Positions 2,041 through 26,341 are shown, counted from the stretch's first letter. The stretch is DNA of 64,000 nucleotides from an uncultured Gammaproteobacteria bacterium (GCA_964416505.1 CAYQEJ010000002.1:90172-154171); one strand, 5' to 3'. The notes: generated from the sequence alone by a model not told the origin. Numbers and translations are program-made.

Positions 2041-2448
2041 TTATTTGGCGCGCATGCGGTTATTTCGAGGATTGTGCTCTAACTCTACTAATCCCAAAGC
2101 TTCCATAAGTGGAGGCATATACATCCCAAATCTTCCGCGAAGTCCTTTTTTTAACCCATACCATCCGCCAATGGGATTTTCTGAAGATCTAGCCCATGCT
2201 TCTACTGTTCCTTCTTTGGCCGGCTTTTGCTCGTCAGCACTCCCCAGCTCCATCCAATCTCCATGTTTTTTTAACATTTCATGAAGATCTTTAATCGCGC
2301 GCAAATCATAACTAAGAGTAGTTGATCCTACTACACAAACAATCGCAGGAGGCGTGAGTGATTCATCTTTATACATGAGATATTCACTTGTTCCCGGAGG
2401 AGTCTTAAGTTTCCAAGGATTTTCGCGAGTTCCTAAATCTTTTGTCAT
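2041..2448 (-). CDS. Hypothetical protein (135 aa)
   Basis: ORF preceded by TTGACT-17-TAGATT (rc of 2449-2490). Confidence 0.5.
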   Translation of the reverse strand: MTKDLGTRENPWKLKTPPGTSEYLMYKDESLTPPAIVCVVGSTTLSYDLRAIKDLHEMLKKHGDWMELGSADEQKPAKEGTVEAWARSSENPIGGWYGLKKGLRGRFGMYMPPLMEALGLVELEHNPRNNRMRAK

Positions 2449-11832: not shown

Positions 11833-13341
11833 ATGAAATTGGCATTTCAAATATTTCTAAATAAAAATATTTTTCCTATTATTTTATTATTCTTTTTTTT
11901 ATTTAATTCCTATTTACAAATAACCTCTAGCTCAATCACATTTGACGAACCAGCACATATAAAATCAGGTCTTGAATGGCTGACTACTGGTTTTTCGAAT
12001 TCAGATCCTTTCACTCCACCTTTTTCAAAAATTCCCTTTGGAATTTATCAGCTGGTTGGATTAAATTTATTTAATGATCCTTTCCTTATTATTCCTAGAT
12101 TCACAAATACAATTTTAACCGCAGTATTTTTTATTTATTTTTATTTTTTTATAAAAAAACAGTTCTCATTTAAAGTTGCAATTATTTCTCTTTTTTTATT
12201 AATAGTTGAGCCAAATGTAATCGGCTACACTCATTTGGCAACGACTGAAACAATGACTATGATTACTTTCTTTTTAGCATTTTCTCAAATTATAATTTTT
12301 ATTCAAAATAAAAAAAATAATCTATTACCTGTCATAATTTCAATAATTTTTTTATATATTACCAAGAGTGTTTTTTTGCCAGCGTTTTTACCTATCATAA
12401 TTTTAGCGAGCCCTAAATTAAAAAAAATTAAATTTAAAAAATTTTTAACTCAATCTTCTTTGGCCTTTTTAGTATTTATTATTCTTATATTACTGATATC
12501 AGGATTTCATACTTATCCTGCTTTCGCAGATAAATTTTCCATTCCCGGAGGAGGAGTGATTAACTCTACTTTTTCGGCAGTGAGTTACGTAGTAAATCCT
12601 AAATTTATTCCTACACGTCAGATAATTTTTATGGGAAATATAAGCCATGAAAGTTCTTATTTATATATTCCACTTTCATTTTTACTAAAAACTTCTCCTC
12701 ATCTGCTCATCCTGCTAACGACAGGAATATTTTTAGTATTATTCAGAAAAATAAAAGATAAAAAAATAATTTTTGGAATAATAACAATTTTTTCCTGTAT
12801 ATCTATAGTTACATTAGGAAACTATAATACTGGCGTAAGACATTTACTCCCTGCTTTCCCGATTATTTCTTTTATTTCAGGTTTTGTGTTATTAGAGTTT
12901 GTTTTGAAAAAATTAAATCTTAAAAAGATTATCATCTCTTCTCTAATTTTTATTTCAATAATAATTTGTTTAAGAAATAAGGACTCACTTGCTTATTTTA
13001 ATCCGGTAATTGGGTCTAAAGAAGGATCCAAAATATTAACAGAAAGTAATTTTGACTGGGGACAAAGCTTGCCATATCTTCAAAAAGAAAATCAGAAAAT
13101 TGATTATTTAGTATCAAGCACGAATGAAGATTCACAAAAATATGGCATATATGCGCCTCCCCTTCCCTCAGATTGGAAATTAAATATCCAAAAATTAAAT
13201 AATAAAAATATATTCATTTCAAATACTGCTTATTACAAATCAGGGCTTTATGAAGAAAATATATTCTCAATAGATAAAGCAGAATACTCCGCAAACAATA
13301 CTTATTTTATTTTTAAAATCCGGGGAAATAATCAGTTTTAA
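11833..13341 (+). CDS. Membrane glycosyltransferase, GT39/ArnT-PMT-like
   Basis: 502 aa with many TM helices. The N-terminal luminal loop carrying a DE motif (FDEPAH) and the overall architecture are typical of dolichyl/undecaprenyl-phosphate-sugar dependent GT-C enzymes. Confidence 0.55.
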   Translation: MKLAFQIFLNKNIFPIILLFFFLFNSYLQITSSSITFDEPAHIKSGLEWLTTGFSNSDPFTPPFSKIPFGIYQLVGLNLFNDPFLIIPRFTNTILTAVFFIYFYFFIKKQFSFKVAIISLFLLIVEPNVIGYTHLATTETMTMITFFLAFSQIIIFIQNKKNNLLPVIISIIFLYITKSVFLPAFLPIIILASPKLKKIKFKKFLTQSSLAFLVFIILILLISGFHTYPAFADKFSIPGGGVINSTFSAVSYVVNPKFIPTRQIIFMGNISHESSYLYIPLSFLLKTSPHLLILLTTGIFLVLFRKIKDKKIIFGIITIFSCISIVTLGNYNTGVRHLLPAFPIISFISGFVLLEFVLKKLNLKKIIISSLIFISIIICLRNKDSLAYFNPVIGSKEGSKILTESNFDWGQSLPYLQKENQKIDYLVSSTNEDSQKYGIYAPPLPSDWKLNIQKLNNKNIFISNTAYYKSGLYEENIFSIDKAEYSANNTYFIFKIRGNNQF

Positions 13342-14818
13342 TTTTATGAGATTTTATTCCTAACTTTTTTAGTAAATTCTTATATCCTTCGACCATCTCA
13401 TTAGTTCCTGATATGTAGTAGATTCTTTCATTATAATCAGGCACCTCTTTTTTAATAATTTCAGGAGTAAGTCTTCCAACATATCCATTCCAGCTCTTTT
13501 CTTCTGCACCCTTTGTTAAAAGATAAATTGTTCTTATGCCAATATTTTTTGCTAATTCAAAAATATCTTTGTAGACAAAATTTTCTAAGTCTCGATTTGA
13601 ATAAAAAATTACTATATCCCTACTTTGATTTTTATCAATTAAATATTTTACTATGCTTCTAAATGGAGTGACTCCAATTCCACCAGCAATAAAAACTAAT
13701 TTACCATCTGTCTTAGGAAGAATAAAATCCCCAGCTAGATTTCCTGCGTATATTTTTTGTCCAGGGTTCATATTTAATAATGCTTTTTTAAAACTACTGC
13801 TTTTCTCATCCATTCTTATTCCAAGCTTTATTTGATCTTCAGTTGGAGATGAAGAAATAGTGAAAAATCGCCTCATTCCTCTGCTATCAGGCCTCTTATG
13901 TCCTAAGGTCCACTCAAAGTATTGACCAGATTTAAAATTTAAATTTTTTGGTTTTTTAAAAATAAATTCATAGATATTTGGTGAAAGTTGTACTTTTTTG
14001 ATAAATTCTAAAACTAATCTTTTTCTAAAACTTACAAAGTAAGAAAAGATATTTCCAATAACTAACGCTGTTTCAGAAGTAGAATAAAAAGGCCCTATAC
14101 TAATTTGCGACCCCGATAAAATTCCTACTATGGCACCATAAATAATTTGCAATTTTCTTGTAGGAGGAGTTGTAAGTGGTTCAGTTAGCATAATTGTTCC
14201 AAGAAAAATCAAAGGCCACGAAGGAATTGCTTGAGAAAGAATCTGAACTATATCTGCTTTATTTAAATATGCAAAAAATGAAATAGACATCAATGCGCAA
14301 ATAAAGAATGATAAAAACATACTAATTTTCCTTATTTTTCTAACTACTAAAAATCCTATTAACAAAACGAATGGAAAAAGAAATTTATTTCCTATCCACC
14401 ATTCTGTCTGAGTTGCTCCAAGAAGTCCCATTATTACTAATGAAATTGCAACGGGATTAAATATATGTTTTTTATGAAGAACAAATACGTATTTTGAACC
14501 CATTGCAATAACTCCGAATAAAATATAGTTAAGTGGGCTTTCTCCAAATTTATATGGAGTAAGAATTAAAAATAAAATGAGCGATGTAATAGCAAAAGAT
14601 TCAATATTGAATTGTACTTTAAATATCTTTGCAAAAATAAAATTTGAAACAAAACAAATTAAGGTAATTAATCCTAAGGAAATTATTAAATCAAACGTGG
14701 AAAATGGAACTATTCCAATCCCAGAAGAAAAAATTGCTAAAGACGAAAGAAAAATTAAACCATATAAAACTACCTTATACATTGTAAAGTAGTTTAAAAA
14801 TCTATCTATAGCTTTCAT
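13313..14818 (-). CDS. Membrane-anchored oxidoreductase: N-terminal polytopic domain fused to a ferredoxin-NADP reductase-like FAD/NAD(P)-binding domain
   Basis: About 280 aa of TM helices. The C-terminus carries RRFFTISSSP (the RxYS FAD-binding motif) and GGIGVTPF (the NAD(P) GGxGxxP motif). Confidence 0.65.
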   Translation of the reverse strand: MKAIDRFLNYFTMYKVVLYGLIFLSSLAIFSSGIGIVPFSTFDLIISLGLITLICFVSNFIFAKIFKVQFNIESFAITSLILFLILTPYKFGESPLNYILFGVIAMGSKYVFVLHKKHIFNPVAISLVIMGLLGATQTEWWIGNKFLFPFVLLIGFLVVRKIRKISMFLSFFICALMSISFFAYLNKADIVQILSQAIPSWPLIFLGTIMLTEPLTTPPTRKLQIIYGAIVGILSGSQISIGPFYSTSETALVIGNIFSYFVSFRKRLVLEFIKKVQLSPNIYEFIFKKPKNLNFKSGQYFEWTLGHKRPDSRGMRRFFTISSSPTEDQIKLGIRMDEKSSSFKKALLNMNPGQKIYAGNLAGDFILPKTDGKLVFIAGGIGVTPFRSIVKYLIDKNQSRDIVIFYSNRDLENFVYKDIFELAKNIGIRTIYLLTKGAEEKSWNGYVGRLTPEIIKKEVPDYNERIYYISGTNEMVEGYKNLLKKLGIKSHKIKTDYFPGF

Positions 14819-14830
14819 ATAAATATTGTA

Positions 14831-15709
14831 CTAAATTTTCTTTTCAATGAATAATTCTGCAGGAAAATTATTGGATTTCTCAAAAGTATAATCAGGAAAA
14901 AGCACTAAACTTTCGAAATCAAAATACTTCTCTAACTTTTCTTTGGGAACAAAAAATAAACATGTAGCTAACCCATCTGCGATAATAGCTTTTTTTGCAA
15001 CTACCCAGGTAGCAAGAATATTCTTGGGAGACTCCAAGGTCTTAGGATTAATTATATGATGAAATTTATCCCAGGCTCTCCTATTCCCAGAAGAAGCTGC
15101 GATGCTTTCATTTTGAATTTTAGCAATTCCTATTACCTGTTCAAAATTACCTGGATGCTCCAAGCCTATTGAAAGAAATTCTTTTGAATTTCTATAATAC
15201 ATATCCCCTCCACCATCGACGCAAAAATCTTTTATTCCACTATCCTCTAGGATTTTGGAGATTATATCTATCAGATATCCTTTCCCAAGCCCTCCGAAAT
15301 CTAAAAGATATGGAATCTTAGTGCTTAAAACAGGGTGTTTATATATAAAAACTTCTTTTTCAGATGGAATTTTTTCAATTTTTCCTGGCGTTAATGTATA
15401 ACCGGAATCATATCCCGCCTATTCTAAAACATTTCCTACTAAAAGTGTGAACTCTCCATTAGTGATCAAGGAAAGTTTTTCATATAGAGAAAATAAATCT
15501 TTCGCATCTTGTGGAAAATTATATTCCCCTTTTTTCTTAGAAATTTCCCAAACGAGCGAATCATTACGAAATCTGGAATAAGTTTTATCGAAAACTTCTA
15601 TTCTCTTTTTAATATCTGATAAAACTTTCTCTTGAGGATATGGCGAATCTACACAATCGATAACCCAACTGGTTCCGATTGCTTCAAAGCTTAGCTTAAA
15701 AGAATACAT
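14831..15709 (-). pseudogene. apbE: FAD:protein FMN transferase ApbE, interrupted by a single in-frame TAG at 15419-15421
   Basis: Both track ORFs (15419..15709 and 14831..15202) plus the 216 nt between them translate in one frame to a contiguous ApbE (FDKTYSRF...DFGGLGKGYLIDII...VDGGGDM...ADGLATCLFV). The only interruption is one TAG codon. Confidence 0.55.
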
Positions 15710-15711
15710 TT

Positions 15712-16212
15712 TTAAGATTTTGCTTGAGACTTAATGTCATCAAGCGCAGCATTAAATCCAATTGGTGTTAAACTGGATCCAGAAACTTTCGAAAGCTTAA
15801 CTTCATCAATATTTTTACCAATTACCATTTCCTTATAGTTTGCTATGAAATCTGCTTGTTTTTCTTTTGAAACTGGATTCTTAGCTTGAGGAGTAACTGT
15901 TACATCCTTTACTACTCCACTAGATAAAGTAACGCTTACTTTAATTGATTCGGTTCCCGAATGGTATGCATATGATCCTACAGCTTCGTAAGCTCCATCT
16001 TTATAACCCGCGTTCGATGATTTATCTGGTGTATCAGGCTGTATTTGATTAGTTCCATTATTCTGGGCTGCAGGAGCTTGAACGCTTGACTGATTTTTAT
16101 TTTTCATATAGAAAAATACTCCACCTGCGACCAAAGCTATGATTACAATTACAGCTACAACGACCAATATTAAATTTTTATTTCCTCCTGATGTAGATAC
16201 TTGTTCTTCCAT
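15712..16212 (-). CDS. Membrane-anchored FMN-binding domain protein (putative flavinylation substrate)
   Basis: N-terminal TM anchor, then a domain ending in VSGSSLTPIGFNAAL. This resembles the FMN_bind (NqrC/RnfG-like) flavinylation motif [S/T]G[A/S][S/T]. It lies directly upstream of apbE. Confidence 0.5.
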   Translation of the reverse strand: MEEQVSTSGGNKNLILVVVAVIVIIALVAGGVFFYMKNKNQSSVQAPAAQNNGTNQIQPDTPDKSSNAGYKDGAYEAVGSYAYHSGTESIKVSVTLSSGVVKDVTVTPQAKNPVSKEKQADFIANYKEMVIGKNIDEVKLSKVSGSSLTPIGFNAALDDIKSQAKS

Positions 16213-16371
16213 AATTCACCTCCTTTTTTACTTAATATGAGAATCGATTAGATTACCATTATAACAAAATTTTCTTACATAAAATCAATTATTTTAATCT
16301 AATTTCGTCAGGATATTGTCTTTTTAGAGTCAAGTCTAAATTGCATAAATTTTATAGAATTACTGGATTAG

Positions 16372-17940
16372 ATGACTACAGAATTACCATCAAAAGCTTC
16401 GCCAGATCAGCATATACCAGGTACCAGAACAAGAACAACACAGCCTACTTTAGGTGATGCTCTTCGTTCTGATCCGGAGCTGATTGAGCATGTCACTAGA
16501 CCTGATAGGTCTGGACTTTCCGTGGCAGAAGCCGCCTTCTTGGCAGAGCATTCGGGATTCGTACCCCAAAGACACCCCACAGAATTAGGTCCACTGCTAG
16601 GACTTAGCGAAGGATTTGTCCATCAAGGAAGAGAGTTTACGTTGATGGAAGTGCATGCGGGAGCTCGACCTTTATACCATCATGAAATGCCGAAAGAACA
16701 GGCAGACATTTCTCAAGCTATTGCAGGTATGGGCGTCTATAATACCGTAGTTGATTCTAATGGATCAAGAGGAAATGTCGATATTCATTCTGAAGTTGCT
16801 ACAGCTGTTCATGACAGAGCAAGAGAAACATTAGCTAATGGTCAATTTACTGTTATCCTCCCTTTTGCAAACGAAGCAGGAACTATCGGAAAAGCTATGC
16901 GCCATTCCGCATCAAGAGTAGGAAAAGACAATATTATTGCTATAGATGCAGAAACTGATCCCCTAGCATCATCAGAAGCACAGGCAACTAGCGAAGAACT
17001 TGGCGACGCTGATGTTGTAAAGCAATCTGATGTGTTAAGTGGAATAGACTGGGATTTACTTCGCAGAGAAGGCATTGTTCCTCCCGATTTTCAACCCAAA
17101 GGCGCAAAAGGACTAACAATGTATGCGGGTGTAATTGCAGCACAAGCTCTAGGTCAACTTGATGGAAAAACCGTTATTTTCCATGATACTGATATCACAA
17201 ACCCTGGAAGTGAAGATGCCCAAAGAAGTGAATCCGGATCTTATGGAGCACTTGAACATTTAGCAATTCCTTATACCTATCCTTTAGATTCAGGAACTAT
17301 ACATAGCACTATGATTGCTAGAACTGGTACAGGCAGAAATAATGAACCATGGCTTTATCAAGCAAACATGATCGCTGCTATGTCTCATTTACCTAAAATG
17401 CAAAGATTAGCTGTTCTACTAGGAAGTCTTGAATGGCCATTAAGCGGTGAGAGAACAATTGGCGGAAATATAACATCACACGACGGATCAATTAAGCCCC
17501 TAATTCACGAATTAGCTTTCCCTGTAGGAATGGGTGTTGAAACCTACATGAATATTGCTCTTGCTGGAATCGATGCTAAAACAGGAAGACGAAGTGTATT
17601 TCAAGTAGCGAATCCTAATCCAAAATTAGAAAATAGAGAAAGCCCAAGAGATAGAGAATATGGATTGATTTTTGGTTGCGCTAAAAATTTAAACTTCCTG
17701 GCTAGACATGTTGAAGAAACAGGAAAACATGTTATCGACTGGGATATAGACGATATCGCAAGTTTTAATCAAAAACATGGTGGAAGAAGAGACATGTTGT
17801 CCGTCCCAAGTCCGATTGACCATCAACCAAATAGAGTCGTATCATCAGGAGTGGATGTTCTCCTACCAAGTATCTCTATGCTTGAATCCTTGGGTGCTGT
17901 AAACTGGGATAAGGTTAAAGGAGCAATTAGGCCTAACTAA
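16372..17940 (+). CDS. GT-A type glycosyltransferase-like protein (glucosyl/mannosyl-3-phosphoglycerate synthase-like), compositionally distinct
   Basis: VILPFANEAGTIGKAMRH...NIIAIDAETD resembles the GpgS/MpgS pattern (V(I/L)PALNEE.TIG.V....D..(I/L)V(I/L)DSGSTD). The extra roughly 150-aa N-terminus has no match. Its stop overlaps the next start (TAATG). Confidence 0.4.
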   Translation: MTTELPSKASPDQHIPGTRTRTTQPTLGDALRSDPELIEHVTRPDRSGLSVAEAAFLAEHSGFVPQRHPTELGPLLGLSEGFVHQGREFTLMEVHAGARPLYHHEMPKEQADISQAIAGMGVYNTVVDSNGSRGNVDIHSEVATAVHDRARETLANGQFTVILPFANEAGTIGKAMRHSASRVGKDNIIAIDAETDPLASSEAQATSEELGDADVVKQSDVLSGIDWDLLRREGIVPPDFQPKGAKGLTMYAGVIAAQALGQLDGKTVIFHDTDITNPGSEDAQRSESGSYGALEHLAIPYTYPLDSGTIHSTMIARTGTGRNNEPWLYQANMIAAMSHLPKMQRLAVLLGSLEWPLSGERTIGGNITSHDGSIKPLIHELAFPVGMGVETYMNIALAGIDAKTGRRSVFQVANPNPKLENRESPRDREYGLIFGCAKNLNFLARHVEETGKHVIDWDIDDIASFNQKHGGRRDMLSVPSPIDHQPNRVVSSGVDVLLPSISMLESLGAVNWDKVKGAIRPN

Positions 17941-19097
17941 TGAATAAACAAGATCTTTCTTATCTTAATACAGTTAAATCCGCCTTTGCAGTTTACAAAT
18001 CAGGAGTTAAAAGAAAAGCAAATGGAAAATTAACATATGACTACTTAGTACCATCGGGAGTTTATGAAGAACAATGGGACTGGGATGCATTCTTCATGGG
18101 AATTGCGTTGTCTCATGAAATTCCTTCTGAAGCCATTTACTTAAAAAATTGGGTTTTAAATTTTTTAAATAATAGTGATAAAAATGGTTTTACACCCGGA
18201 TGTATTACACCGGAAGGTAGAGACAAAAGACTGCATCAAATGAAACCTTTCTTAGCACAAGGAGCATATGTAGCTTCAGTGAAAATGAATGATTTTTCTT
18301 GGCTCGAAAAAAATGTAAATCAGCTAGAGAAAATTGTACTTTTTAGAGAGAAAAATTTATGGAATTCAAAGTATGACCTAGGAGTTTGGTTTAACTCCAT
18401 GGAATCCGGTGCAGATGATAATCTCGCAGCATTAAATTTTGAAGATAAATCAATAATTGGGACTGACTTAAATTCATTTATTTATAAAGAATACGAATCA
18501 TTAAGTAAAATTTATAAAAATTTAAAGAAACCTAATTCCGCAAAAATATTTGAAGATCGTGCGAATGAAATAAAAAATAATATAAATAAATTCCTTTGGT
18601 CTGATGAATTAAACTCATATCTTAACTTAGATATATCCTCAAATAATCACGTCAAACGAATCTCCTATAACTCAATCCATCCTCTTTGGGCTGGAATTGC
18701 ATCGCAAAAAAGAGCAGAAAATTTTGTAAATAAATATCTTTTAAATAAAAATAAATTATGGTCAAATTATGGCATTAGAACGCTTTCAAAAGATGATCCT
18801 GGATATAATAATGAAAATAAAATAAAACCACACTCCAACTGGCAAGGACCAATATGGGTTATCTCAAATTACTTTTATACTCAAGCTCTTATTAGATACG
18901 GTTTTCAAAAAAAATCAGTTGAAGTAGTAAAAAAAATTGCCGAAATTTGCATAGACGACATTAAAAAATCTGGAGGGATGCATGAGAATTATGATGCAGA
19001 AAATGGAAAACCTTTGGCTGCTCCAAATTTTATATCTTGGAATCTACTACTCCCTGAAATGCTAGAAAGCTCATTATCAAATAAATTAATTTATTAA
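17940..19097 (+). CDS. GH63-like (alpha/alpha)6 glycoside hydrolase (mannosyl/glucosylglycerate hydrolase-like)
   Basis: 385 aa. The pattern WDWDAFFMGIALSH...GFTPG and the C-terminal GGMHENYDAENGKP match the GH63 / MGH / trehalase-like catalytic domain. Confidence 0.6.
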   Translation: MNKQDLSYLNTVKSAFAVYKSGVKRKANGKLTYDYLVPSGVYEEQWDWDAFFMGIALSHEIPSEAIYLKNWVLNFLNNSDKNGFTPGCITPEGRDKRLHQMKPFLAQGAYVASVKMNDFSWLEKNVNQLEKIVLFREKNLWNSKYDLGVWFNSMESGADDNLAALNFEDKSIIGTDLNSFIYKEYESLSKIYKNLKKPNSAKIFEDRANEIKNNINKFLWSDELNSYLNLDISSNNHVKRISYNSIHPLWAGIASQKRAENFVNKYLLNKNKLWSNYGIRTLSKDDPGYNNENKIKPHSNWQGPIWVISNYFYTQALIRYGFQKKSVEVVKKIAEICIDDIKKSGGMHENYDAENGKPLAAPNFISWNLLLPEMLESSLSNKLIY

Positions 19098-19103
19098 TCT
19101 TCT

Positions 19104-20171
19104 ATGAATTTAATTCAAATAAAAAAAATCCGAGATAACTTTATTGAAGAATTAAATTTATCAGAAAGAAAAAATAAAACAAGCCTTCCTTTCATTATCA
19201 ATCCTCTTCCCTCCAAAAAAATTGTTAAAAATGAAGAAGTATTCCAAGCGATTGTGGTTGGAGGAAGCATGGGCAAAATAGCAAAACTAAAAAATAACAC
19301 CAATGGATTAGAAATCTTATCAACTGAAGAAAAGGAACAACCAAGATTTGATTCTTATGAAATTTTTATGGAGTATTTAGAAAATCAGCTTCATGTAGAT
19401 ACAAAAATTCTTGCTGTTGATTTTGCTTTTCCGCTCTCCCCTATTTTAGAAGATGGAATTTTAGATGGAATTTTGCTTCGAGGAACAAAAGAACATTTAT
19501 TTCATGGACTTGTTGGAAAAAAAATTGGTGAAGAGATTAGTAATTATTTTCTAAAAAAAAGAGGACAAAAAATATTAGTCTCTTGCGCAAATGACACAGT
19601 CTGCCTACTCCTTTCAGGACTAACTAAATATTCTAAGGATAATCTGGCATGTGGAATTTTAGGAACCGGAATGAATGCCGCTTTTTTCTTAGATGAAAAT
19701 AAATGTGTCAACTTAGAATCAGCTAGTTTTGATAAATTTCCAAAATCTCCAGAAGGAGAAATTATTGATGCTTCTTCAACTCAACCGGGAACAGCACTTT
19801 TCGAAAAAGAAATTACAGGCGCCTATCTTTACAAACATTTTAATTTAATAATTAAAGAAAAAGGAATTGATTTCAAACCCATAAACTCTACCCTAGAACT
19901 AAAAAATTTATCGCACGAAAACAGTGGCGAAGTTTCCAAAATTGCAAACGAATTATTAGATAAATCTGCTGCGTATATCTCTGCTCAAATTGCTGCTATC
20001 AGTGAATTTAAAAAGAGAGATATGGTTTTCGTGATGGATGGAAGCTTTTTTTGGGAAAGTACTTATAAAAAAAGAGTTGACGAAATGATTCCTAGATTAA
20101 CAAATTATAAAATAGAATTGGTTGAAATAAAAAATAATACCGTCTTAGGACCTGCGCAACTCGTAATATAA
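19104..20171 (+). CDS. Hexokinase-family sugar kinase
   Basis: CANDTVCLL (hexokinase ...NDTVGTL...), ILGTGMNAAFF (GTGTNAAY) and VMDGSFF (DGS) are hexokinase signatures. Confidence 0.6.
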   Translation: MNLIQIKKIRDNFIEELNLSERKNKTSLPFIINPLPSKKIVKNEEVFQAIVVGGSMGKIAKLKNNTNGLEILSTEEKEQPRFDSYEIFMEYLENQLHVDTKILAVDFAFPLSPILEDGILDGILLRGTKEHLFHGLVGKKIGEEISNYFLKKRGQKILVSCANDTVCLLLSGLTKYSKDNLACGILGTGMNAAFFLDENKCVNLESASFDKFPKSPEGEIIDASSTQPGTALFEKEITGAYLYKHFNLIIKEKGIDFKPINSTLELKNLSHENSGEVSKIANELLDKSAAYISAQIAAISEFKKRDMVFVMDGSFFWESTYKKRVDEMIPRLTNYKIELVEIKNNTVLGPAQLVI

Positions 20172-21380
20172 TTATTCGTACCTGATTGCCTCGATTGGAG
20201 AAAGATCTGCAGCCTTTTTTGCAGGAAAAACTCCAAAGAAAATTCCTATAACTGATGAGATCCCTAAAGCTGCTAAAACTGATACCAAATTAATGCCAGC
20301 AGGAAAAAAAGGCTGAATAAGAATAACAATTAGTACTGCAATCAAAAGCCCTAATACGCCTCCAAAAACTGAAAGAATTAATGCCTGAGCTAAAAACTGA
20401 AGAAGAATATCTTGCTTTGTTGCCCCAATAGCACGCCTTATACCAACTTCCTTTGTGCGTTCTGTAACTGTTGCATACATAATATTCATTATTCCAATAC
20501 CCCCTACTATTAATGAGATGGATCCAATTGCTATAAGAATATAATTTAAGATTGAGAATATTTGAGTTACTATATTTAATATTTCTGTTTGTTCGACAAC
20601 TTGAAATTCATCCTCTTTATATTTTTTCAATAATTGCTTCTTTAATTCATTTTTTACAGTCGGAATAGATTCCTTATTCACCGCGGTAACGTAAATAGCG
20701 GAATATTTTTTATTTGGATTAAGAGAATTAATTTTAGAGGAAACATAAGTGAAACTGTCAAAACTTGGACCTCCCAATCCTCCACCACCTTTTGAATTCA
20801 ACACTCCTTTTATTTTAAAAGATTGATCAGAAATTCTTATTTTTTTCCCAACTGCAGATTCAGGGGAACCATACAAATCCTCTGCAAGCTTGGGACCGAT
20901 CATTACCTCTTTAGCACGCCTATCAACATCTGCTTTAGTAAGTAATCTTCCTGCTTGAGCTTCAAGATTTAATACATTAGAAATTTCCTGATTAGTCATA
21001 ACTATACTCGTTGATTTCTTCTCCCCATTTGCCTGGGCAATCGAACTTTTCTGTAAAATTGGAACCACATATAACACTCCATCCAACTTTTTCAGTTTAA
21101 AAACATCTGAATCCGTAAATCTTTCTCCAAGCGCACCATTTCCTCCACCAAATCCCCCATCTTCACTTAAAACCTGTCCAGGAAAAACATAAATAATATT
21201 CGAGCCTAAATTATCAAATTGTTGTTGAATATAATTCCTAAGCCCAATTCCAAAAGCAATAAGTAAAACTACAGACAAAACACCAATAAGAATTCCAAGA
21301 GAAGTTAAAAAAGTTCTCACTCTGTTTCTCTTGAAATCATCAAGAGCTGATTTGACTAAAAACATTATCTTACCCATCAT
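20172..21380 (-). CDS. ABC transporter permease, MacB/FtsX family
   Basis: N-terminal TM, a large periplasmic domain and a C-terminal FtsX-type four-TM domain. Confidence 0.8.
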   Translation of the reverse strand: MMGKIMFLVKSALDDFKRNRVRTFLTSLGILIGVLSVVLLIAFGIGLRNYIQQQFDNLGSNIIYVFPGQVLSEDGGFGGGNGALGERFTDSDVFKLKKLDGVLYVVPILQKSSIAQANGEKKSTSIVMTNQEISNVLNLEAQAGRLLTKADVDRRAKEVMIGPKLAEDLYGSPESAVGKKIRISDQSFKIKGVLNSKGGGGLGGPSFDSFTYVSSKINSLNPNKKYSAIYVTAVNKESIPTVKNELKKQLLKKYKEDEFQVVEQTEILNIVTQIFSILNYILIAIGSISLIVGGIGIMNIMYATVTERTKEVGIRRAIGATKQDILLQFLAQALILSVFGGVLGLLIAVLIVILIQPFFPAGINLVSVLAALGISSVIGIFFGVFPAKKAADLSPIEAIRYE

Positions 21381-22048
21381 ACATTTACAATCTCCCCGTC
21401 TTTCATACTGATCTGTCTTCTTGCTTTTGCAGCAATTTCTTTGTCATGCGTAACAATAAGAATAGTAACTTTTAAATCTTTATTAAGTTCTTCTAAAAGT
21501 TTTAAGATTTCAGCGCCTGATTTTGAATCAAGATTTCCGGTAGGTTCGTCTGCAAGAATTAACTTTGGATTCATAATAAGCGCTCTTGCAATTGCAACTC
21601 TTTGCTGTTGTCCGCCAGAAATTTTATTAGGTCTATAATCACGTCTTTCTATTATTCCAAATCTCTGTAAAAGCTCATCTGCTCTTTTATATGGATCAAA
21701 ATCAAGCTTAGTCTTCGAATATCGTGCTGGTAAAACTATATTTTCAATTACTGACAATTTATTTATTAAATTAAATTGTTGAAAAATAAATCCAACATAT
21801 CTGTTCCTAAATTCTGATAACGCATCATCTCCCAATTTTGAAACATCTTTCTCGTCCAATAAAACTTTTCCTGTAGTTGGCTTGTCCAATAGACCAAGAA
21901 TGTGCATCATTGTAGATTTTCCGCATCCAGAAGGCCCGACAATAGATGTAAACTCTCCATCTTTTATATTTAAATTAATTTTCTTGAGGACTTTTGCGGT
22001 TTCTTCGCCAATCTCGTAATCTTTCTCTACATCAATCAGCTTAATCAT
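21377..22048 (-). CDS. ABC transporter ATP-binding protein (MacB/LolD-type)
   Basis: Walker A GPSGCGKST, signature LSGGQQQRVAIARAL and Walker B LILADEPT. Confidence 0.9.
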   Translation of the reverse strand: MIKLIDVEKDYEIGEETAKVLKKINLNIKDGEFTSIVGPSGCGKSTMMHILGLLDKPTTGKVLLDEKDVSKLGDDALSEFRNRYVGFIFQQFNLINKLSVIENIVLPARYSKTKLDFDPYKRADELLQRFGIIERRDYRPNKISGGQQQRVAIARALIMNPKLILADEPTGNLDSKSGAEILKLLEELNKDLKVTILIVTHDKEIAAKARRQISMKDGEIVNV

Positions 22049-23063
22049 AGACTATGTCACCTTTGCTTACTCCTTCAACAATTTCAACTGATTCATCACT
22101 CTCCAACCCTGTTTTTACATATTTTTTTTCTTTTTTCTTCCCAAGAAGAATATAACTGCCTTTTTCATCAGATTTAATAAATTTTGAAGGCAAATATAAA
22201 GCATTCTCTTTTTCTTTAATAATAAATGTTGCATCTCCAGTCATTCCAATTCTAAAAGAAGGAATATCCCCAGTAACTGAAACTTTAACTTTATAAACAG
22301 TACCTGATTCATTTTCATCTGGAACAAAAGAGATACTCTCAATCACACCTTTAATTCTTTTTCCCTCAAATGCATCAAGCGTAATTTCACAATCATCTCC
22401 AATATTCAAAGAAACTACCTCCGTTTGATCTGCAGAAACTGAAAAATAAATTGTTTCGGGATTTAAAATAGTAAAAATCGTAGTACCAAATGTAATATTA
22501 TTCCCAACATAATAATTTGATTTACTTGCCACAATCCCTTTAAAAGGCGAAGTCAAAATAGAATCTCTTTTAGCAATATCCTTCAACTCAACAGCTAAAA
22601 CTGCTTTATCTAAATCATACTGATTATTTTCTAAAATTCTCTTAATTTCAGCGTTTGGGGCTGTAGCAGGAGTCCCATTTCCATTATCATCTTTTGTTTG
22701 CTCGAAATTGTTTCTCTGTTTTGAATAATCAAGAAGTGTAGATTGTAAACTTTTTACAACAGACGATTGATCCAAACTTGCCAGTGTCTGATTTTTTGAA
22801 ATTTCATCTCCTTCATTTACCCCTATCCAATTTATTTTTCCTGAAACTGGAAAAAAAAGATTTGTTTTTTCAGTTGCATTTATTTCTCCGGATAAAACTA
22901 ATTCTTCTTTTAAATTTCCTGACTTAACTGTGGCTGAGTCTTGAGGTTTTGAATTCCTGTTCTTAATAAAAATTCCGACAATAACTAAAGCAATTATTAT
23001 GAGAATTGCTAGTAACTTTTTTTTATTCTTAAAAAAATTAATAAAGGCAGTAATTCGGGACAC
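22041..23063 (-). CDS. Efflux periplasmic adaptor (HlyD/MacA family)
   Basis: N-terminal TM anchor with coiled-coil and beta-barrel regions. Overlaps the ATPase gene, forming an adaptor-ATPase-permease operon. Confidence 0.6.
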   Translation of the reverse strand: MSRITAFINFFKNKKKLLAILIIIALVIVGIFIKNRNSKPQDSATVKSGNLKEELVLSGEINATEKTNLFFPVSGKINWIGVNEGDEISKNQTLASLDQSSVVKSLQSTLLDYSKQRNNFEQTKDDNGNGTPATAPNAEIKRILENNQYDLDKAVLAVELKDIAKRDSILTSPFKGIVASKSNYYVGNNITFGTTIFTILNPETIYFSVSADQTEVVSLNIGDDCEITLDAFEGKRIKGVIESISFVPDENESGTVYKVKVSVTGDIPSFRIGMTGDATFIIKEKENALYLPSKFIKSDEKGSYILLGKKKEKKYVKTGLESDESVEIVEGVSKGDIVYD

Positions 23064-23101: not shown

Positions 23102-24118
23102 CTATTTTAGATATTTATCAAAGAAATCTACGCTTCTTCTTGAAGCAGTCCCAAAGTTATTAGCGATATTATGATCATCTCCAGAATACTCATAGTATTC
23201 AACTTTTTTATTCGCAGACAATAACTGCTCTTTCAATTTTTGTGAAAATTCTACAGGAACAGACTCATCAGCAGTTCCATGATGAAGCTGAATTGGACCT
23301 GAAACATCTTCAAGATATGAGTTTGCAGAAAGAGAATTCCAAAACTTGGGATTTGTCTTAGGCGTTCCGTATTCGTCCATTAAGGCTTGTCTCCATCGCC
23401 TTGCGCCTGAAGGAATACTTGATGGAATAGGTCGACGCCAATTATTTATGAGATCATCATAGCTAGCAACTACTCCAGCCCAAATGACTCCAACTTTTAT
23501 ATCTTTATTTACAACCATCGCGCGAAGGGTTATAAACCCTCCCATTGAATGTCCCCACATTCCAATTTTTTCTTTGTTTACATTTGGATATTTTTTTAAG
23601 GAAGAAAGAGCATTTAAAACATCAATTGCATAATCATTGGATCCATATGCTCCTCCCGCATCCCCCTCGCTGTTGCCATGTCCTCTATAATCAGGGCGAA
23701 GCAAAATATATCCATTTCTTGAAAAAGCATCCGTATATGCTACGTATCTTTCAGTAGTTCTATACTCGTCCGGTGGAATATATCCATGATTAAAAACAAT
23801 CGCAGGAAATCCACCCTTTGGCATTTCTCCATCCGGAACAGTTAATAAAGCATATATTTTTAATCCTTCTGATCGATAGCTCACTATGTATCTTTGGTAA
23901 TTGCTACCAGGTTGAAGTTTTTCCTCTATCACTAAATCACTACCAGGATAATTTCCGCTACGTAAGTAATCTATAGATAAAGCAAATGGCTGTGTTTTCA
24001 TTGTTTCAAGATTATCTAAATTATCCGTTTTAAAATTTGAAATATTTAATTTCCCGGATTTCAAAATCAGAATAATCAAAATAATCACAATGGGAATAAA
24101 CAGGAAAATTTTTCTCAT
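23102..24118 (-). CDS. Alpha/beta-hydrolase, S9 prolyl-oligopeptidase-like peptidase/esterase
   Basis: N-terminal anchor, nucleophile elbow GHSMGG and a C-terminal catalytic D...H (GTADESVP...HN). Confidence 0.65.
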   Translation of the reverse strand: MRKIFLFIPIVIILIILILKSGKLNISNFKTDNLDNLETMKTQPFALSIDYLRSGNYPGSDLVIEEKLQPGSNYQRYIVSYRSEGLKIYALLTVPDGEMPKGGFPAIVFNHGYIPPDEYRTTERYVAYTDAFSRNGYILLRPDYRGHGNSEGDAGGAYGSNDYAIDVLNALSSLKKYPNVNKEKIGMWGHSMGGFITLRAMVVNKDIKVGVIWAGVVASYDDLINNWRRPIPSSIPSGARRWRQALMDEYGTPKTNPKFWNSLSANSYLEDVSGPIQLHHGTADESVPVEFSQKLKEQLLSANKKVEYYEYSGDDHNIANNFGTASRRSVDFFDKYLK

Positions 24119-24145: not shown

Positions 24146-25240
24146 CTATCTCAAATCAAGAGTTTCAGCTTTATAGATTAAATTTTTAGGTTTTATTACT
24201 ACTTGCTTCTCTCCTTTTTCTACATATCCTGCATCAATTGCCTGGAATTTATTTTTTTTGATAATACCCAAACATTTATCTACATCTTTTGGTGAAATAA
24301 TCAAACAATAATCCTGTCCCATATTATATGTTTCATACATTTCATAGTCTGATAATCCTGCATGTTTTTGAATAAATTCAAAAACTGGTTGAGGTTTAAA
24401 AATTTTTTCAACTACATACGTAAACTCAGGTCTTCCTCTCATAATTTTCCTGACACCATGTCCCGTGATATTCGAGATATAATGAATATCTACGTTATTT
24501 TTTTGCAAATCCTGAATTACTTTTGCATAAATATTTGATGGCGAAAGTAAATCTTCCCCATATGTCTTATTACCAATCTTTGTCTGATAACCCTTTGGTA
24601 GTTTTTTGGCAATTGCACGAGTTAAAGAAATTCCATTTGCATTTACTCCGTTACTCTTTATTAAAACAATTCTATCTCCTGCATTTATTTTTTTGTCAGT
24701 AACTAAATGTTTTTTATTTTTTATAATTCCAACTGCAGAACCACCCAGATCTACAGATTTACTTTCAATAATTCCTTTTAACGCTGGTGTTTCTCCCCCT
24801 CCCCAAACAACACCGGCTAAATTACATGCTTTTTCCCAACCTTTTATAAAATCCTTCATTCTTTTTCCATCCTGGAGAAATCCGTCTCCAGAATCCGCCC
24901 AGTAAGCATTTAAAACAAGAGGGCTAGCGCCCACGCTAACCAAATCATTAATAATAGTAGCAACTGTATCTTGTGCAATTTCTGCATAAAAAGATTTTTC
25001 TTGTTTTTCCCAAACGGCATCAGCGACTAAACTTTTAGTTCCCAATCCTTCCATTACGAATGCCATAAGGTACTCATTTTGCTCCCAAAGAAATGCTGAT
25101 TCACCACGCGAACCAGAAACCTCCTTAAAAGCTTTTAATAAATTTTTTGATGTATTTTTTGCACTATCTTGTGCAAGTTTTTTTATAGGATCTAATTTTG
25201 AGTAATCTACTCCAGATTTTTTATAAGTAACTTTTTTCAT
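24146..25240 (-). CDS. purM: Phosphoribosylformylglycinamidine cyclo-ligase (AIR synthetase)
   Basis: YKKSGVDYSK N-terminus and a PurM-like N/C domain pattern. Last gene of the pur operon. Confidence 0.8.
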   Translation of the reverse strand: MKKVTYKKSGVDYSKLDPIKKLAQDSAKNTSKNLLKAFKEVSGSRGESAFLWEQNEYLMAFVMEGLGTKSLVADAVWEKQEKSFYAEIAQDTVATIINDLVSVGASPLVLNAYWADSGDGFLQDGKRMKDFIKGWEKACNLAGVVWGGGETPALKGIIESKSVDLGGSAVGIIKNKKHLVTDKKINAGDRIVLIKSNGVNANGISLTRAIAKKLPKGYQTKIGNKTYGEDLLSPSNIYAKVIQDLQKNNVDIHYISNITGHGVRKIMRGRPEFTYVVEKIFKPQPVFEFIQKHAGLSDYEMYETYNMGQDYCLIISPKDVDKCLGIIKKNKFQAIDAGYVEKGEKQVVIKPKNLIYKAETLDLR

Positions 25241-25545
25241 TCTGCTTTTATTTCATGCACTACTGCTAATTCGCTTTGGACATTTCTAAGACTAATTACT
25301 CTTCCATCACCCGCTCCAAAAACATCTCCTCTTACAAATTCTTCCATTCCTCCTCCATCTGCAGCCCAAATTAATCTTCTACCGTCGACAGTATGCATAA
25401 TACTACCATACCTGACCAAACAGCTTCCTTCTAAAATTTGGAAATATCTTTTTGGACCTTCTTCTCCCAGCATGGAACTTTTCCCTGGTTCTATTACTAA
25501 ATCTATTTCTCCCCAGGATTCTCTACCTTCATTTGGTCTTGTCAT
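25237..25545 (-). CDS. Small cupin-like protein inserted between purQ and purM
   Basis: Internal Met (MTRPNEGRESWGEIDLVIEPGKSS...) gives about 100 aa with a beta-rich, cupin-like pattern. G+C visibly higher than the flanking genes. The longer track ORF would overlap purQ. Confidence 0.35.
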   Translation of the reverse strand: MTRPNEGRESWGEIDLVIEPGKSSMLGEEGPKRYFQILEGSCLVRYGSIMHTVDGRRLIWAADGGGMEEFVRGDVFGAGDGRVISLRNVQSELAVVHEIKAE

Positions 25546-25558
25546 GTTGGGAATTATA

Positions 25559-26341
25559 TTAAGAAGTAACAAATTTAACAATATTCTTAAATAAAGGTAA
25601 CCCTTGTGGTGAATCGATCGTACCACGACGCCAATTTGGATGCTGCTCGCGCCTCACAAAACATTCGGGATGTGGCATAAGACCCAAAACTCTTCCGGTT
25701 TCGTCCGATATGCCTACGATTGCATTCGTTGAACCGTTCGGATTATCAGGGTATTTTTGAGTAGGATTTCCCTTTTCATCAACGTACCGAAATGCAACTA
25801 AATTTTCTTTTTCAATTTTTTCTAAATTCTCCAAATTTGCTACAAACTTTCCTTCCCCATGCGCCACTGGGTACCAAAGAATTTGATTTTCCATACCTTT
25901 CAAGAACATAGACTTAGAATTTTCTTCAACCTTCACTTTTACCCATCTGCATTCGAAATGCCCTGAATCATTATTAACTAAGGTTGCATCCATCTCTCCA
26001 ATATTTCCAAAAGGCACCAGCCCAGTTCTGACTAAAACTTGAAAACCATTACATACCCCAATAACTGCGGTGTTCGGTCTTTTTATAAATTTGCGAATCT
26101 CATCTCCAAGATATGACACTATCTCAATTGCCAGCACTTTTCCGGAAACTATATCATCTCCATATGCAAATCCTCCAGGAATTCCCAAAATTTGATAATC
26201 AGATAATTTTTCTTTTTTATTTTTTAAGTCATTTATATGAACTAATTTTGCATCTGCTCCCGCTAGATTAAATGCGAATACCATATCCTCATCTCTATTT
26301 ATTCCATCAGCTTTTATGATTATTGCTTTAGGTTTTTTCAT
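25559..26341 (-). CDS. purQ: Phosphoribosylformylglycinamidine synthase, glutaminase subunit
   Basis: Class I amidotransferase triad: GVCNGFQVL (Cys) and HPE at the C-terminus. Start taken at MKKPKAIIIK. Confidence 0.85.
   Translation of the reverse strand: MKKPKAIIIKADGINRDEDMVFAFNLAGADAKLVHINDLKNKKEKLSDYQILGIPGGFAYGDDIVSGKVLAIEIVSYLGDEIRKFIKRPNTAVIGVCNGFQVLVRTGLVPFGNIGEMDATLVNNDSGHFECRWVKVKVEENSKSMFLKGMENQILWYPVAHGEGKFVANLENLEKIEKENLVAFRYVDEKGNPTQKYPDNPNGSTNAIVGISDETGRVLGLMPHPECFVRREQHPNWRRGTIDSPQGLPLFKNIVKFVTS

What the first reader, a model, noticed from the sequence alone, without database searches (positions are those of the whole stretch)
13313..16212. Putative membrane flavinylation / electron-transfer module
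Three co-oriented genes sit together: a polytopic membrane domain fused to an FNR-like FAD/NAD(P) reductase (RRFFTISSSP, GGIGVTPF); ApbE (FMN transferase); and a membrane-anchored protein with an FMN_bind-like flavinylation motif (VSGSSLTPIGF). This resembles ApbE-dependent extracytosolic flavinylation systems (Nqr/Rnf-like, or flavin-based extracellular electron transfer, where ApbE/FmnB flavinylates a PplA-like FMN-binding protein). Here the ApbE has no signal peptide and carries the amber codon. The membrane GT39-like glycosyltransferase lies adjacent.
Basis: partly seen in the sequence, partly recalled or inferred. Interest (0 to 1): 0.55.

Follow-up and report, generated by a model that had tools for sequence, protein, structure and literature searches.

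The report
Nqr/Rnf-like flavinylation operon, apbE nonsense allele
This is an ordinary member of a previously catalogued but never tested three-gene bacterial module thought to carry electrons from NAD(P)H across the membrane through flavins. The odd stop codon in its flavin-attaching enzyme is a one-base change that is absent from a near-identical strain.

Summary
Three tightly packed minus-strand genes (gaps of 2 and 12 nt) encode:
- a membrane-anchored FMN_bind-fold protein (15712-16212);
- ApbE (14831-15709), with one in-frame TAG at codon 97;
- a 501-aa fusion of an RnfD/NqrB-like membrane domain to an FNR/NqrF-like FAD/NAD(P)H domain (13313-14818).

This is the "NQR/RNF-like" flavinylation-associated cluster defined by Méheust et al. 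2021 and modelled by Huang et al. 2024. The gene order recurs in candidate phyla radiation (CPR), Chloroflexota and Actinomycetota genomes: at least 587 species-level genomes carry the fusion, and 71 of 80 loci inspected have ApbE beside it.

The amber codon is not recoding. TAG ends many genes in the window. A contig 99.9% identical from another sample differs in apbE by a single base, CAG (Gln) instead of TAG. dN/dS for apbE is 0.09, so the lesion is a very recent nonsense allele or a consensus error.

The adjacent glycosyltransferase is not a conserved part of the module.

One point the two key papers do not appear to discuss: ApbEs of this cluster type lack a signal peptide family-wide, although the substrate domain is modelled outside the membrane. 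The acceptor motif is an invariant SGSS rather than SGA[ST].

Verdict: new member of a known, uncharacterised kind; modest interest.

The parts
15712..16212 (-). Gene 1: 166-aa FMN_bind-fold subunit (RnfG/NqrC-like). It has an N-terminal signal anchor, a low-complexity linker, and a C-terminal flavin-carrying domain (residues ~68-166).
16105..16173 (-). Single transmembrane anchor of gene 1 (residues 14-36, LILVVVAVIVIIALVAGGVFFYM). It is too long to be the hydrophobic core of a cleavable signal peptide.
   Evidence: Helix 12-37 in the model; hydrophobicity scan; translation.
15772..15792 (-). Predicted ApbE acceptor motif S141-K-V-S-G-S-S147; the predicted FMN-carrying residue is Ser147 (AGT, 15772-15774). 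It is a variant of D-x-x-[ST]-G-A-[ST].
   Evidence: S144, G145, S146, S147, L148 and T149 are invariant or nearly so in 35 homologues. SGSS is present in 101 of 120 homologues. It aligns with SGAT of the 8p2a FMN-binding domain. Canonical motif from PMC12052999.
14831..15709 (-). Gene 2: apbE (FAD:protein FMN transferase), 292 codons, with no signal peptide or lipobox. It is interrupted by one TAG.
   Evidence: Pfam ApbE E=4.8e-37 over residues 12-263. Motifs GGLGKGY, DGGGD, SGNRR, HHIINP and ADGLAT are intact. 120 homologues are ~288-299 aa, with 4-8 residues before the FxAxGT motif.
15419..15421 (-). In-frame TAG at apbE codon 97. This is a single C->T change from CAG (Gln).
   Evidence: L088 (99.92% identical over 2,584 bp) has CAG, the only difference in 879 nt. 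L007 also has CAG. 120 homologues have E, D or Q at this position.
14024..14818 (-). Gene 3, N-terminal part: RnfD/NqrB-like polytopic membrane domain (residues 1-~265). It lacks the flavinylated Thr loop of RnfD/NqrB.
   Evidence: PF03116 E=7e-5, below cut-off. NCBIfam rnfD 1e-3. About half of the listed homologues carry PF03116. Profile against PDB hits RnfD 8ahx_D, E=5e-4. Only 2 of 120 homologues have any [ST]G[AS][ST] in this domain. The same was reported in PMC11334425.
13313..14017 (-). Gene 3, C-terminal part: FNR/NqrF-like FAD- and NAD(P)H-binding domain (residues ~268-501), with RRFFTISS (13850-13873) and GGIGVTPF (13661-13684).
   Evidence: PF00175 E=1e-13. NCBIfam nqrF 8e-15 and other FNR-type families. 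Foldseek hits to NqrF FAD domains and flavohaemoglobins, E 1e-14 to 1e-17. Model pLDDT 86.6.
16213..16266 (-). Putative 5' control region of the operon: an extended -10-like TGTTATAAT (16258-16266) and a Shine-Dalgarno-like AAAGGAGGTG just upstream of the ATG. Inferred only.
   Evidence: Read directly from the sequence. The promoter scan is not above chance. No riboswitch or other Rfam family in 13000-16600.

Best explanation
This locus is a three-gene operon, FMN_bind subunit -> ApbE -> RnfD-like/FNR-like fusion. It belongs to the 'Nqr/Rnf-like' class of flavinylation-associated clusters. The host is a CPR/Patescibacteria genome; its nearest named relatives are Candidatus Levybacteria.

Proposed mechanism (inferred, not shown):
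1. NAD(P)H reduces FAD in the cytosolic FNR-like domain of the fusion protein.
2. Electrons pass to a non-covalently bound flavin inside the RnfD/NqrB-like membrane domain, which has lost its own flavinylation site.
3. They then pass to FMN attached by ApbE as a phosphoester to Ser147 of the small membrane-anchored FMN_bind subunit on the outer face.
4. That FMN reduces an unidentified extracytosolic acceptor.
This is a one-way, two-subunit reduction of the Nqr/Rnf wiring.

In this particular sequence apbE carries a very recent C->T nonsense change (CAG Gln97 -> TAG). As written, the gene yields a 96-residue fragment. Unless the base call is a consensus error or another ApbE exists elsewhere in the genome, the module in this strain would lack its covalent flavin.
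For: Shown:
- Domain identities.
- Tight co-orientation, with gaps of 2 and 12 nt.
- The same gene order in relatives at 44-99% identity (L002, L004, L005, L007, L088).
- ApbE lies beside the fusion gene in 71 of 80 species-level loci, almost always directly upstream on the same strand.
- At least 587 species-level genomes encode the fusion.
- The literature defines exactly this architecture and notes the missing Thr site in the membrane domain: PMC8238504, PMC11334425.
- I reproduced the missing-site result independently.

Nonsense allele:
- TAG is an ordinary stop here, ending 18 of 72 large ORFs.
- No tRNA genes lie in the window.
- L088 differs from the window in apbE by only this one base.
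- dN/dS between the window and L007 is 0.086 for apbE (0.09 downstream of the TAG), against 0.06 and 0.12 for the two neighbouring genes.
- All catalytic motifs are intact.
Against: - No member of this cluster type has been tested experimentally, so electron flow, donor, acceptor and even flavinylation of the SGSS motif are inferred.
- The motif departs from D-x-x-[ST]-G-A-[ST] at two positions: the Asp is not conserved, and Ala is replaced by an invariant Ser.
- ApbE has no export signal in this or any related cluster, yet the model needs the flavinylated domain outside the membrane.
- The charge-difference rule on the anchor is ambiguous. For the window protein itself it favours the C-terminus facing in.
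- The RnfD match of this sequence is below Pfam's cut-off.
- I could not inspect reads, so a real nonsense allele and a consensus error cannot be told apart. L001 is identical to the window but may derive from the same sample.
Confidence: 0.8

Rival explanations
1. The module faces the cytoplasm. The FMN_bind domain sits on the cytosolic side (N-out/C-in anchor) and is flavinylated there by the signal-less ApbE. It shuttles electrons between the FNR-like domain and the membrane domain, so the system is not an extracytosolic electron exporter of the kind proposed.
For: - ApbE lacks any signal peptide in all 120 closest homologues. In 71 neighbouring loci the open frame upstream is too short or not hydrophobic.
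- Cytosolic ApbE/FMN_bind pairs are known, for example the K. pneumoniae fumarate reductase (PMC12052999).
- For the window protein, the C-terminal flank of the anchor is the more positive.
Against: - The subunit is homologous to RnfG/NqrC, whose domains are periplasmic.
- The published AlphaFold-multimer model docks this subunit on the outer face, near the flavin site of the membrane domain (PMC11334425).
- Across the family, the net-charge difference weakly favours N-in/C-out: 65 against 36 of 121.
Confidence: 0.15
2. The TAG is a sequencing, assembly or consensus artefact, or a minority allele that was fixed in the consensus. The organism's apbE would then be intact.
For: - It is one transition in an otherwise perfectly conserved gene.
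- The intact allele exists in a 99.92%-identical contig from another sample.
- dN/dS is 0.09.
Against: The same TAG appears in the Logan assembly of SRR12487045 (L001). That assembly may, however, come from the same reads as the window. C->T substitution errors are uncommon at normal coverage.
Confidence: 0.25
3. The TAG is decoded, either by programmed read-through, a suppressor tRNA or codon reassignment, and ApbE is made full-length.
For: The reading frame downstream is intact and conserved.
Against: - TAG terminates 18 of 72 large ORFs in the window.
- No tRNA gene lies in the window.
- None of 120 homologues, nor the two closest strains, carries a stop at this position, so nothing conserves it.
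Confidence: 0.03
4. The locus is a Listeria-type flavin-based extracellular electron transfer system, with an FmnB/PplA-like pair.
For: It contains an ApbE together with an FMN_bind protein.
Against: - There is one FMN_bind domain on a signal anchor, not a two-domain lipoprotein.
- ApbE is not a lipoprotein.
- No Ndh2, EetA/B, DmkA/B or FmnA lies within about 10 kb on either side.
- The partner is an RnfD-FNR fusion.
Confidence: 0.02

Closest known systems
NQR/RNF-like flavinylation-associated gene clusters (Méheust et al. 2021, eLife, PMC8238504; Huang et al. 2024, mSystems, PMC11334425)
   Same: - A fusion of an NqrB/RnfD-like membrane domain with a C-terminal PF00175 NAD-binding domain.
- An NqrC/RnfG-like FMN_bind subunit and apbE in the same cluster.
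- Found mainly in the candidate phyla radiation and Actinobacteria.
- The membrane domain lacks the flavinylated Thr.
   Different: - This sequence falls just below Pfam's PF03116 and PF04205 cut-offs, so the published operational definition would miss it.
- apbE carries a nonsense codon.
- The family is far larger than the 127 clusters reported: at least 587 species-level genomes.
- The absence of a signal on the cluster's ApbE and the invariant SGSS motif did not turn up in my searches of those papers.
Rnf and Na+-NQR complexes (RnfD/RnfG; NqrB/NqrC/NqrF)
   Same: - RnfD/NqrB-like membrane fold at sequence level.
- RnfG/NqrC-like FMN_bind fold.
- NqrF-like FAD/NAD(P)H domain.
- ApbE-dependent flavin attachment.
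   Different: - Only two polypeptides.
- No RnfA/B/C/E or NqrA/D/E, and no Fe-S domain.
- No covalent-FMN site in the membrane subunit.
- Electron flow is presumed to be one-way rather than semicircular, and no ion pumping is implied.
Cytoplasmic ApbE of Klebsiella pneumoniae (flavinylates a soluble fumarate reductase)
   Same: An ApbE without a signal peptide that acts in the cytosol (PMC12052999).
   Different: Its substrate is a soluble cytosolic enzyme. Here the only candidate substrate is membrane-anchored and is modelled outside the membrane.
NOX/FRE-type ferric reductases and MsrQ-like-NAD fusions
   Same: A membrane electron-transfer domain fused to a cytosolic FNR-like NAD(P)H/FAD domain. 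Foldseek also hits the S. pneumoniae NOX dehydrogenase domain.
   Different: Their membrane domain is a di-haem cytochrome b. Here it is an RnfD-like flavin-binding domain with no conserved haem ligands identified.

Membership tests
NQR/RNF-like flavinylation-associated cluster (Méheust 2021 operational definition) | An ApbE (PF02424) or FMN_bind (PF04205) gene in the cluster | tested here: met
   PF02424 E=4.8e-37, 128 bits against a cut-off of 25.6. The C-terminal fragment alone also carries PF02424 in the Logan annotation.
NQR/RNF-like flavinylation-associated cluster (Méheust 2021 operational definition) | One protein with an N-terminal NqrB/RnfD domain (PF03116) and a C-terminal PF00175 domain | tested here: inconclusive
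   PF00175 is met (52 bits against 22). PF03116 scores 22.8 bits, below the 27.7 cut-off. At family level it is met: about half of the listed homologues at 48-58% identity carry PF03116, and a profile of the domain hits RnfD 8ahx_D at E=5e-4.
NQR/RNF-like flavinylation-associated cluster (Huang 2024 description) | The membrane subunit lacks the flavinylated Thr conserved in NqrB/RnfD | tested here: met
   The alignment has no conserved [ST]GA[ST]. The segment between HIFNP and G155 is only ~30 residues. Only 2 of 120 homologues have any such motif. The RnfD match covers only the part of the domain after the site.
NQR/RNF-like flavinylation-associated cluster (Huang 2024 description) | A second subunit homologous to NqrC/RnfG that carries the flavinylation site | tested here: met
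NQR/RNF-like flavinylation-associated cluster (Méheust 2021 filter) | ApbE or the FMN_bind protein carries a signal peptide or lipidation site (extracytosolic) | tested here: inconclusive
   ApbE has none, in this sequence and family-wide. The FMN_bind protein has an uncleaved-type 23-residue anchor whose orientation the charge rule does not settle. No SignalP or TMHMM tool was available.
FMN_bind domain (PF04205) | Score at or above Pfam's gathering cut-off | tested here: not met
   16.4 bits against 22, E=0.015, covering profile positions 5-74 of 77. 19 of 35 homologues match at E<=1, best 4.5e-6.
FMN_bind domain (PF04205) | FMN_bind fold | tested here: met
ApbE substrates | Acceptor motif D-x-x-[S/T]-G-A-[S/T] | tested here: not met
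   The sequence is S-K-V-S-G-S-S. The first position is Asp in only 11 of 101 homologues, and Ala is replaced by an invariant Ser. Published mutagenesis shows D->A has little effect and A->V roughly halves flavinylation (PMC12052999), so function remains plausible but is untested.
ApbE (FAD:protein FMN transferase) | ApbE domain with FAD/Mg-binding and catalytic motifs | tested here: met
   PF02424 E=4.8e-37. GGLGKGY, DGGGD, SGNRR, HHIINP and ADGLAT are present and invariant or conserved among orthologues.
ApbE (FAD:protein FMN transferase) | Uninterrupted reading frame | tested here: not met
   TAG at codon 97. An intact allele exists in L088.
ApbE (canonical periplasmic lipoprotein form) | N-terminal lipoprotein signal peptide | tested here: not met
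   The profile starts at residue ~9, and the ATG lies 2 nt after the upstream stop. The E. coli-type model aligns from its position 40.
Canonical Rnf or Na+-NQR complex | Remaining subunits (RnfA/B/C/E or NqrA/D/E/F) encoded together | tested here: not met
   No such families were found among the ORFs of 120 aa or more that I scanned between positions 1420 and 31042.
Listeria-type flavin-based EET locus | Lipoprotein PplA with two FMN_bind domains, lipoprotein FmnB, Ndh2, EetA/B, DmkA/B | tested here: not met
   There is a single FMN_bind domain on a signal anchor, a signal-less ApbE, and none of the other genes in the flanks.

The most novel reading that the evidence does not exclude
In Nqr/Rnf-like systems the flavin is attached in the cytoplasm, because the dedicated ApbE never has an export signal. 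There are two ways this could work. Either the FMN_bind subunit faces the cytoplasm, in which case the published 'extracytosolic electron export' model for this whole cluster class is wrong. Or a polypeptide that already carries FMN on a variant SGSS motif near its C-terminus is threaded through Sec afterwards, which would be a route for covalent flavoprotein export not described before.
Probability: 0.3. Interest if true: 0.55.

Novelty: new member of a known kind. Interest (0 to 1): 0.3.

Why it matters
The instance itself changes little. It confirms that the bioinformatically defined Nqr/Rnf-like module is common in CPR bacteria, which have few recognisable redox systems. It also shows that Pfam cut-offs undercount the module: both the RnfD-like and the FMN_bind domains of this copy fall below threshold.

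Two family-level points are worth passing to people who work on flavinylation:
1. The cluster's ApbE has no export signal, so the compartment in which flavinylation happens is unresolved. This also helps explain why a signal-peptide filter found CPR 'strikingly underrepresented'.
2. The acceptor motif is an invariant SGSS rather than SGA[ST].

The natural CAG/TAG allele pair in near-identical strains is a ready-made contrast, with and without ApbE, if the organism or a metagenome time series can be followed.

Tried and rejected
- Codon reassignment or suppression of TAG: rejected. TAG ends 18 of 72 large ORFs, and no other split gene was explained by it. There are no tRNA genes in the window.
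- Internal restart after the TAG: rejected. There is no ATG, GTG or TTG in frame until Met170, which would drop the FAD-binding GGLGKGY segment (read).
- FMN riboswitch or other RNA element upstream: none in 13000-16600 at E<=1.
- Promoter and terminator scans: not above chance.
- Second copies of ApbE, FMN_bind or the fusion in the window: none.
- Flavinylation site in the membrane domain: 'LLGATQTE' (residues ~132-139) looked like a relic SGAT, but it is not conserved.
- Positive-inside and charge-difference analysis of the anchor: ambiguous.
- Foldseek of the whole fusion model: swamped by FNR-domain hits and uninformative for the membrane half.
- Look-up of the source contig through P0121: failed.
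- The NQR/RNF-like sheet of the eLife supplement was truncated in the stored copy, so the authors' signal-peptide column for these ApbEs could not be read.
- Glycosyltransferase as part of the module: rejected because it is not syntenic beyond the closest strain.

Full report
**1. What is there**

Window 13313-16212 holds three minus-strand ORFs packed head to tail.
- Gene 1 (15712-16212) ends in TAA 2 nt before the ATG of gene 2.
- Gene 2 (14831-15709) ends 12 nt before the ATG of gene 3 (13313-14818).
- A strong Shine-Dalgarno-like AAAGGAGGTG and an extended -10-like TGTTATAAT precede gene 1. This is read from the sequence only; the promoter scan is not above chance.

**2. Gene 3: RnfD-like membrane domain fused to an FNR-like reductase**

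- Pfam gives NAD_binding_1 at E=1e-13. The NQR2_RnfD_RnfE match is sub-threshold (22.8 against 27.7 bits).
- NCBIfam gives a series of FNR-type reductases, including nqrF (8e-15), and weak rnfD/rsxD matches.
- More than 5,600 database proteins match at E<=1e-5. About half of the best 120 (48-58% identical) carry PF03116 as well as PF00175, and several are named RnfD or NqrB fusions by their sources.
- A profile of the first 268 residues hits RnfD of the Azotobacter Rnf structure (8ahx_D) at E=5e-4. The match covers only the part after the flavinylation loop.
- The AlphaFold model is confident (pLDDT 86.6) and shows about ten membrane helices followed by an FNR fold. Foldseek matches NqrF FAD domains, flavohaemoglobins and bacterial NOX dehydrogenase domains at 1e-14 to 1e-17.
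- The membrane domain has no conserved [ST]GA[ST]. Only ~30 residues separate the invariant HxFNP from G155, where RnfD has its long flavinylated loop. Only 2 of 120 homologues carry any such motif.

**3. Gene 1: FMN_bind subunit**

- On its own the 166-aa protein fails Pfam's FMN_bind cut-off: E=0.015, 16.4 against 22 bits, though the match is nearly full-length.
- 19 of 35 homologues match PF04205 (best 4.5e-6), and JGI names many of them 'uncharacterized protein with FMN-binding domain'.
- The AlphaFold model has a helix at residues 12-37, a disordered linker, and a domain with pLDDT 96-98.
- The stretch K-[VI]-S-G-S-S-L-T-P-x-G-F is invariant or nearly so. SGSS aligns with the SGAT of 8p2a, so Ser147 is the predicted FMN-carrying residue.
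- Against the canonical D-x-x-[S/T]-G-A-[S/T] (PMC12052999), the Asp position is Asp in only 11 of 101 homologues, and Ala is replaced by an invariant Ser.
- Published mutagenesis suggests such changes reduce flavinylation rather than abolish it. This variant has not been tested.

**4. Gene 2: ApbE, and the amber codon**

- The 292-codon frame matches Pfam ApbE across both halves (E=4.8e-37). It keeps GGLGKGY, DGGGD, SGNRR, HHIINP and ADGLAT.
- Codon 97 is TAG.
- TAG is a normal stop in this genome: it ends 18 of 72 ORFs of at least 120 codons. No tRNA gene lies in the window.
- In 120 homologues the position is E, D or Q, just before an invariant A-G-Y-D.
- The decisive comparison is L088, a 2,584-bp contig from another run (SRR14234033). 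It is 99.92% identical to the window, and its apbE differs in exactly one of 879 bases: CAG (Gln) where the window has TAG.
- A more distant strain (L007, ~93% nt identity) also has CAG.
- Between the window and L007, dN/dS is 0.086 for apbE (0.09 downstream of the TAG). The FMN_bind gene gives 0.06 and the fusion 0.12.
- The gene has therefore been under purifying selection until essentially now. The TAG is a very recent nonsense allele or a consensus error, not recoding.
- L001 (SRR12487045) carries the same TAG, but it is identical to the window and may come from the same reads.
- L007 has its own lesion, an A8 run instead of A7 (window 14990-14996), which shifts the frame. This may be a homopolymer error.

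**5. Conservation of the module**

- The order FMN_bind -> ApbE -> fusion is found in relatives at 44-99% identity: L002, L004, L005 (a Saccharibacteria MAG), L007 and L088.
They include Patescibacteria/CPR lineages, Chloroflexota (including Dictyobacter) and Actinomycetota.
- In 71 of the 80 best loci an ApbE gene lies next to the fusion, almost always directly upstream on the same strand.
- The flanking genes differ between lineages. The PMT_2-like membrane glycosyltransferase (11833-13341) is shared only with the closest strain. The divergent upstream genes (16372-20171) form a separate sugar-related group.
- No Rnf/Nqr, EET, VIT1 or cytochrome genes were found among the ORFs scanned between positions 1420 and 31042.

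**6. Comparison with what is known**

- Méheust et al. 2021 defined 'NQR/RNF-like systems' as flavinylation-associated clusters that encode an N-terminal NqrB/RnfD domain fused to a C-terminal PF00175 domain. [quoted passage not shown]
- Huang et al. 2024 modelled the two-subunit complex from Ktedonobacter racemifer. They noted that the membrane subunit lacks the Thr conserved in NqrB/RnfD. They suggested that the flavin covalently bound to the small subunit reaches a non-covalent flavin site in the membrane subunit.
- The window's genes fit this description feature by feature, so the finding is a new member of a known, experimentally uncharacterised kind.
- It would be missed by the published operational definition, because both PF03116 and PF04205 fall below cut-off here.

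**7. How it most likely works**

- Inferred pathway: NAD(P)H -> FAD (FNR-like domain, cytosol) -> non-covalent flavin in the RnfD-like domain -> FMN on Ser147 of the anchored subunit (outer face) -> unknown acceptor.
- Shown here: domain identities, operon structure, conservation, absence of a flavinylation site in the membrane domain, and intact ApbE catalytic motifs.
- Not shown: any cofactor, the donor's identity, the direction of flow, the acceptor, or flavinylation of SGSS.

**8. The unresolved compartment question**

- ApbE indeed has no export signal. This holds for the whole cluster family:
  - The 120 closest homologues have 4-8 residues before the first conserved motif.
  - In most of the 71 neighbouring loci the open frame upstream of the domain is at most ~20 codons. 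Where it is longer, it is not hydrophobic.
- The substrate domain is placed outside the membrane by homology with RnfG/NqrC and by the published multimer model.
- The charge-difference rule is weak evidence. Across 121 family members it leans to N-in/C-out (65 against 36). For the window protein itself, the C-terminal flank is the more positive.
- My searches of the two key papers found no discussion of this.
- Possible resolutions:
  - Flavinylation of the C-terminal motif before Sec translocation. ApbE accepts 7-residue linear tags.
  - A cytoplasm-facing FMN_bind domain.
  - Non-classical export of ApbE.
- I could not test these.

**9. Verdict**

- The amber codon is a one-base strain difference.
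- The glycosyltransferase is incidental.
- Interest is modest (0.3). The residual interest lies in the family-wide signal-less ApbE and the SGSS motif, not in this particular locus.

Noticed in passing
L007:1118-2003 (equivalent to window 14990-14996): In the ~93%-identical strain from SRR22840552, apbE has an A8 run where the window has A7. This gives a +1 frameshift and a scrambled C-terminus (protein P0241). Two close relatives therefore carry different disabling lesions in apbE. This one could be a homopolymer sequencing error.
   Followed up: partly
L079:3148-5413: In a Patescibacteria MAG (JBBTSF010000049), ApbE and the RnfD-like/FNR fusion lie in one continuous open frame. This is either a three-domain fusion protein or an assembly or frameshift artefact.
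   Followed up: no
L008-L087 (80 species-level loci): Two ApbE subtypes sit next to the fusion gene. In 21 loci the ApbE resembles the window's (E<1e-90 to my profile). In 50 loci it is much more divergent (E about 1e-10 to 1e-21). In L056 and L077 it lies downstream instead of upstream. None shows a signal peptide.
   Followed up: partly
window 16372-20171 (+): A divergently transcribed gene group lies here. It starts with a 522-aa ORF with no Pfam family, a noticeably higher G+C (about 39% against ~31% nearby) and a faint glucosyl-3-phosphoglycerate-synthase match (E=0.004). An MGH1/GH63/trehalase-like hydrolase and a hexokinase-like protein follow. It could be a glucosylglycerate- or mannosylglycerate-type compatible-solute operon.
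   Followed up: no
window 24146-31042 (-): A run of de novo purine biosynthesis genes: purM-like, purQ (GATase_5), purL (939 aa), purD and purN. This is notable because many CPR genomes lack the pathway.
   Followed up: no
window 13313-13341: The 3' ends of the fusion gene (minus strand) and the convergent PMT_2-like membrane glycosyltransferase gene (plus strand) overlap by 29 nt. The same neighbour is present in L007 but not in more distant relatives.
   Followed up: partly
L008, L009, L012, L015, L017 and others: Many species-representative MAG records that carry this CPR-type operon are titled 'uncultured Gammaproteobacteria bacterium'. The closest hit to the window (L008, 71% identity) is one of them. 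These organism labels look unreliable.
   Followed up: no
window 2041-2448 (-): A 135-aa protein gives a very strong full-length match to DUF6855 (E=9e-72). Its function is unknown.
   Followed up: no
window 20172-23063 (-): A MacB-type ABC exporter set (MacB_PCD/FtsX permease, ABC ATPase, HlyD-like adaptor) lies here. An alpha/beta hydrolase of the same kind that lies directly upstream of the flavinylation operon in L002 and L004 follows at 23102-24118.
   Followed up: no
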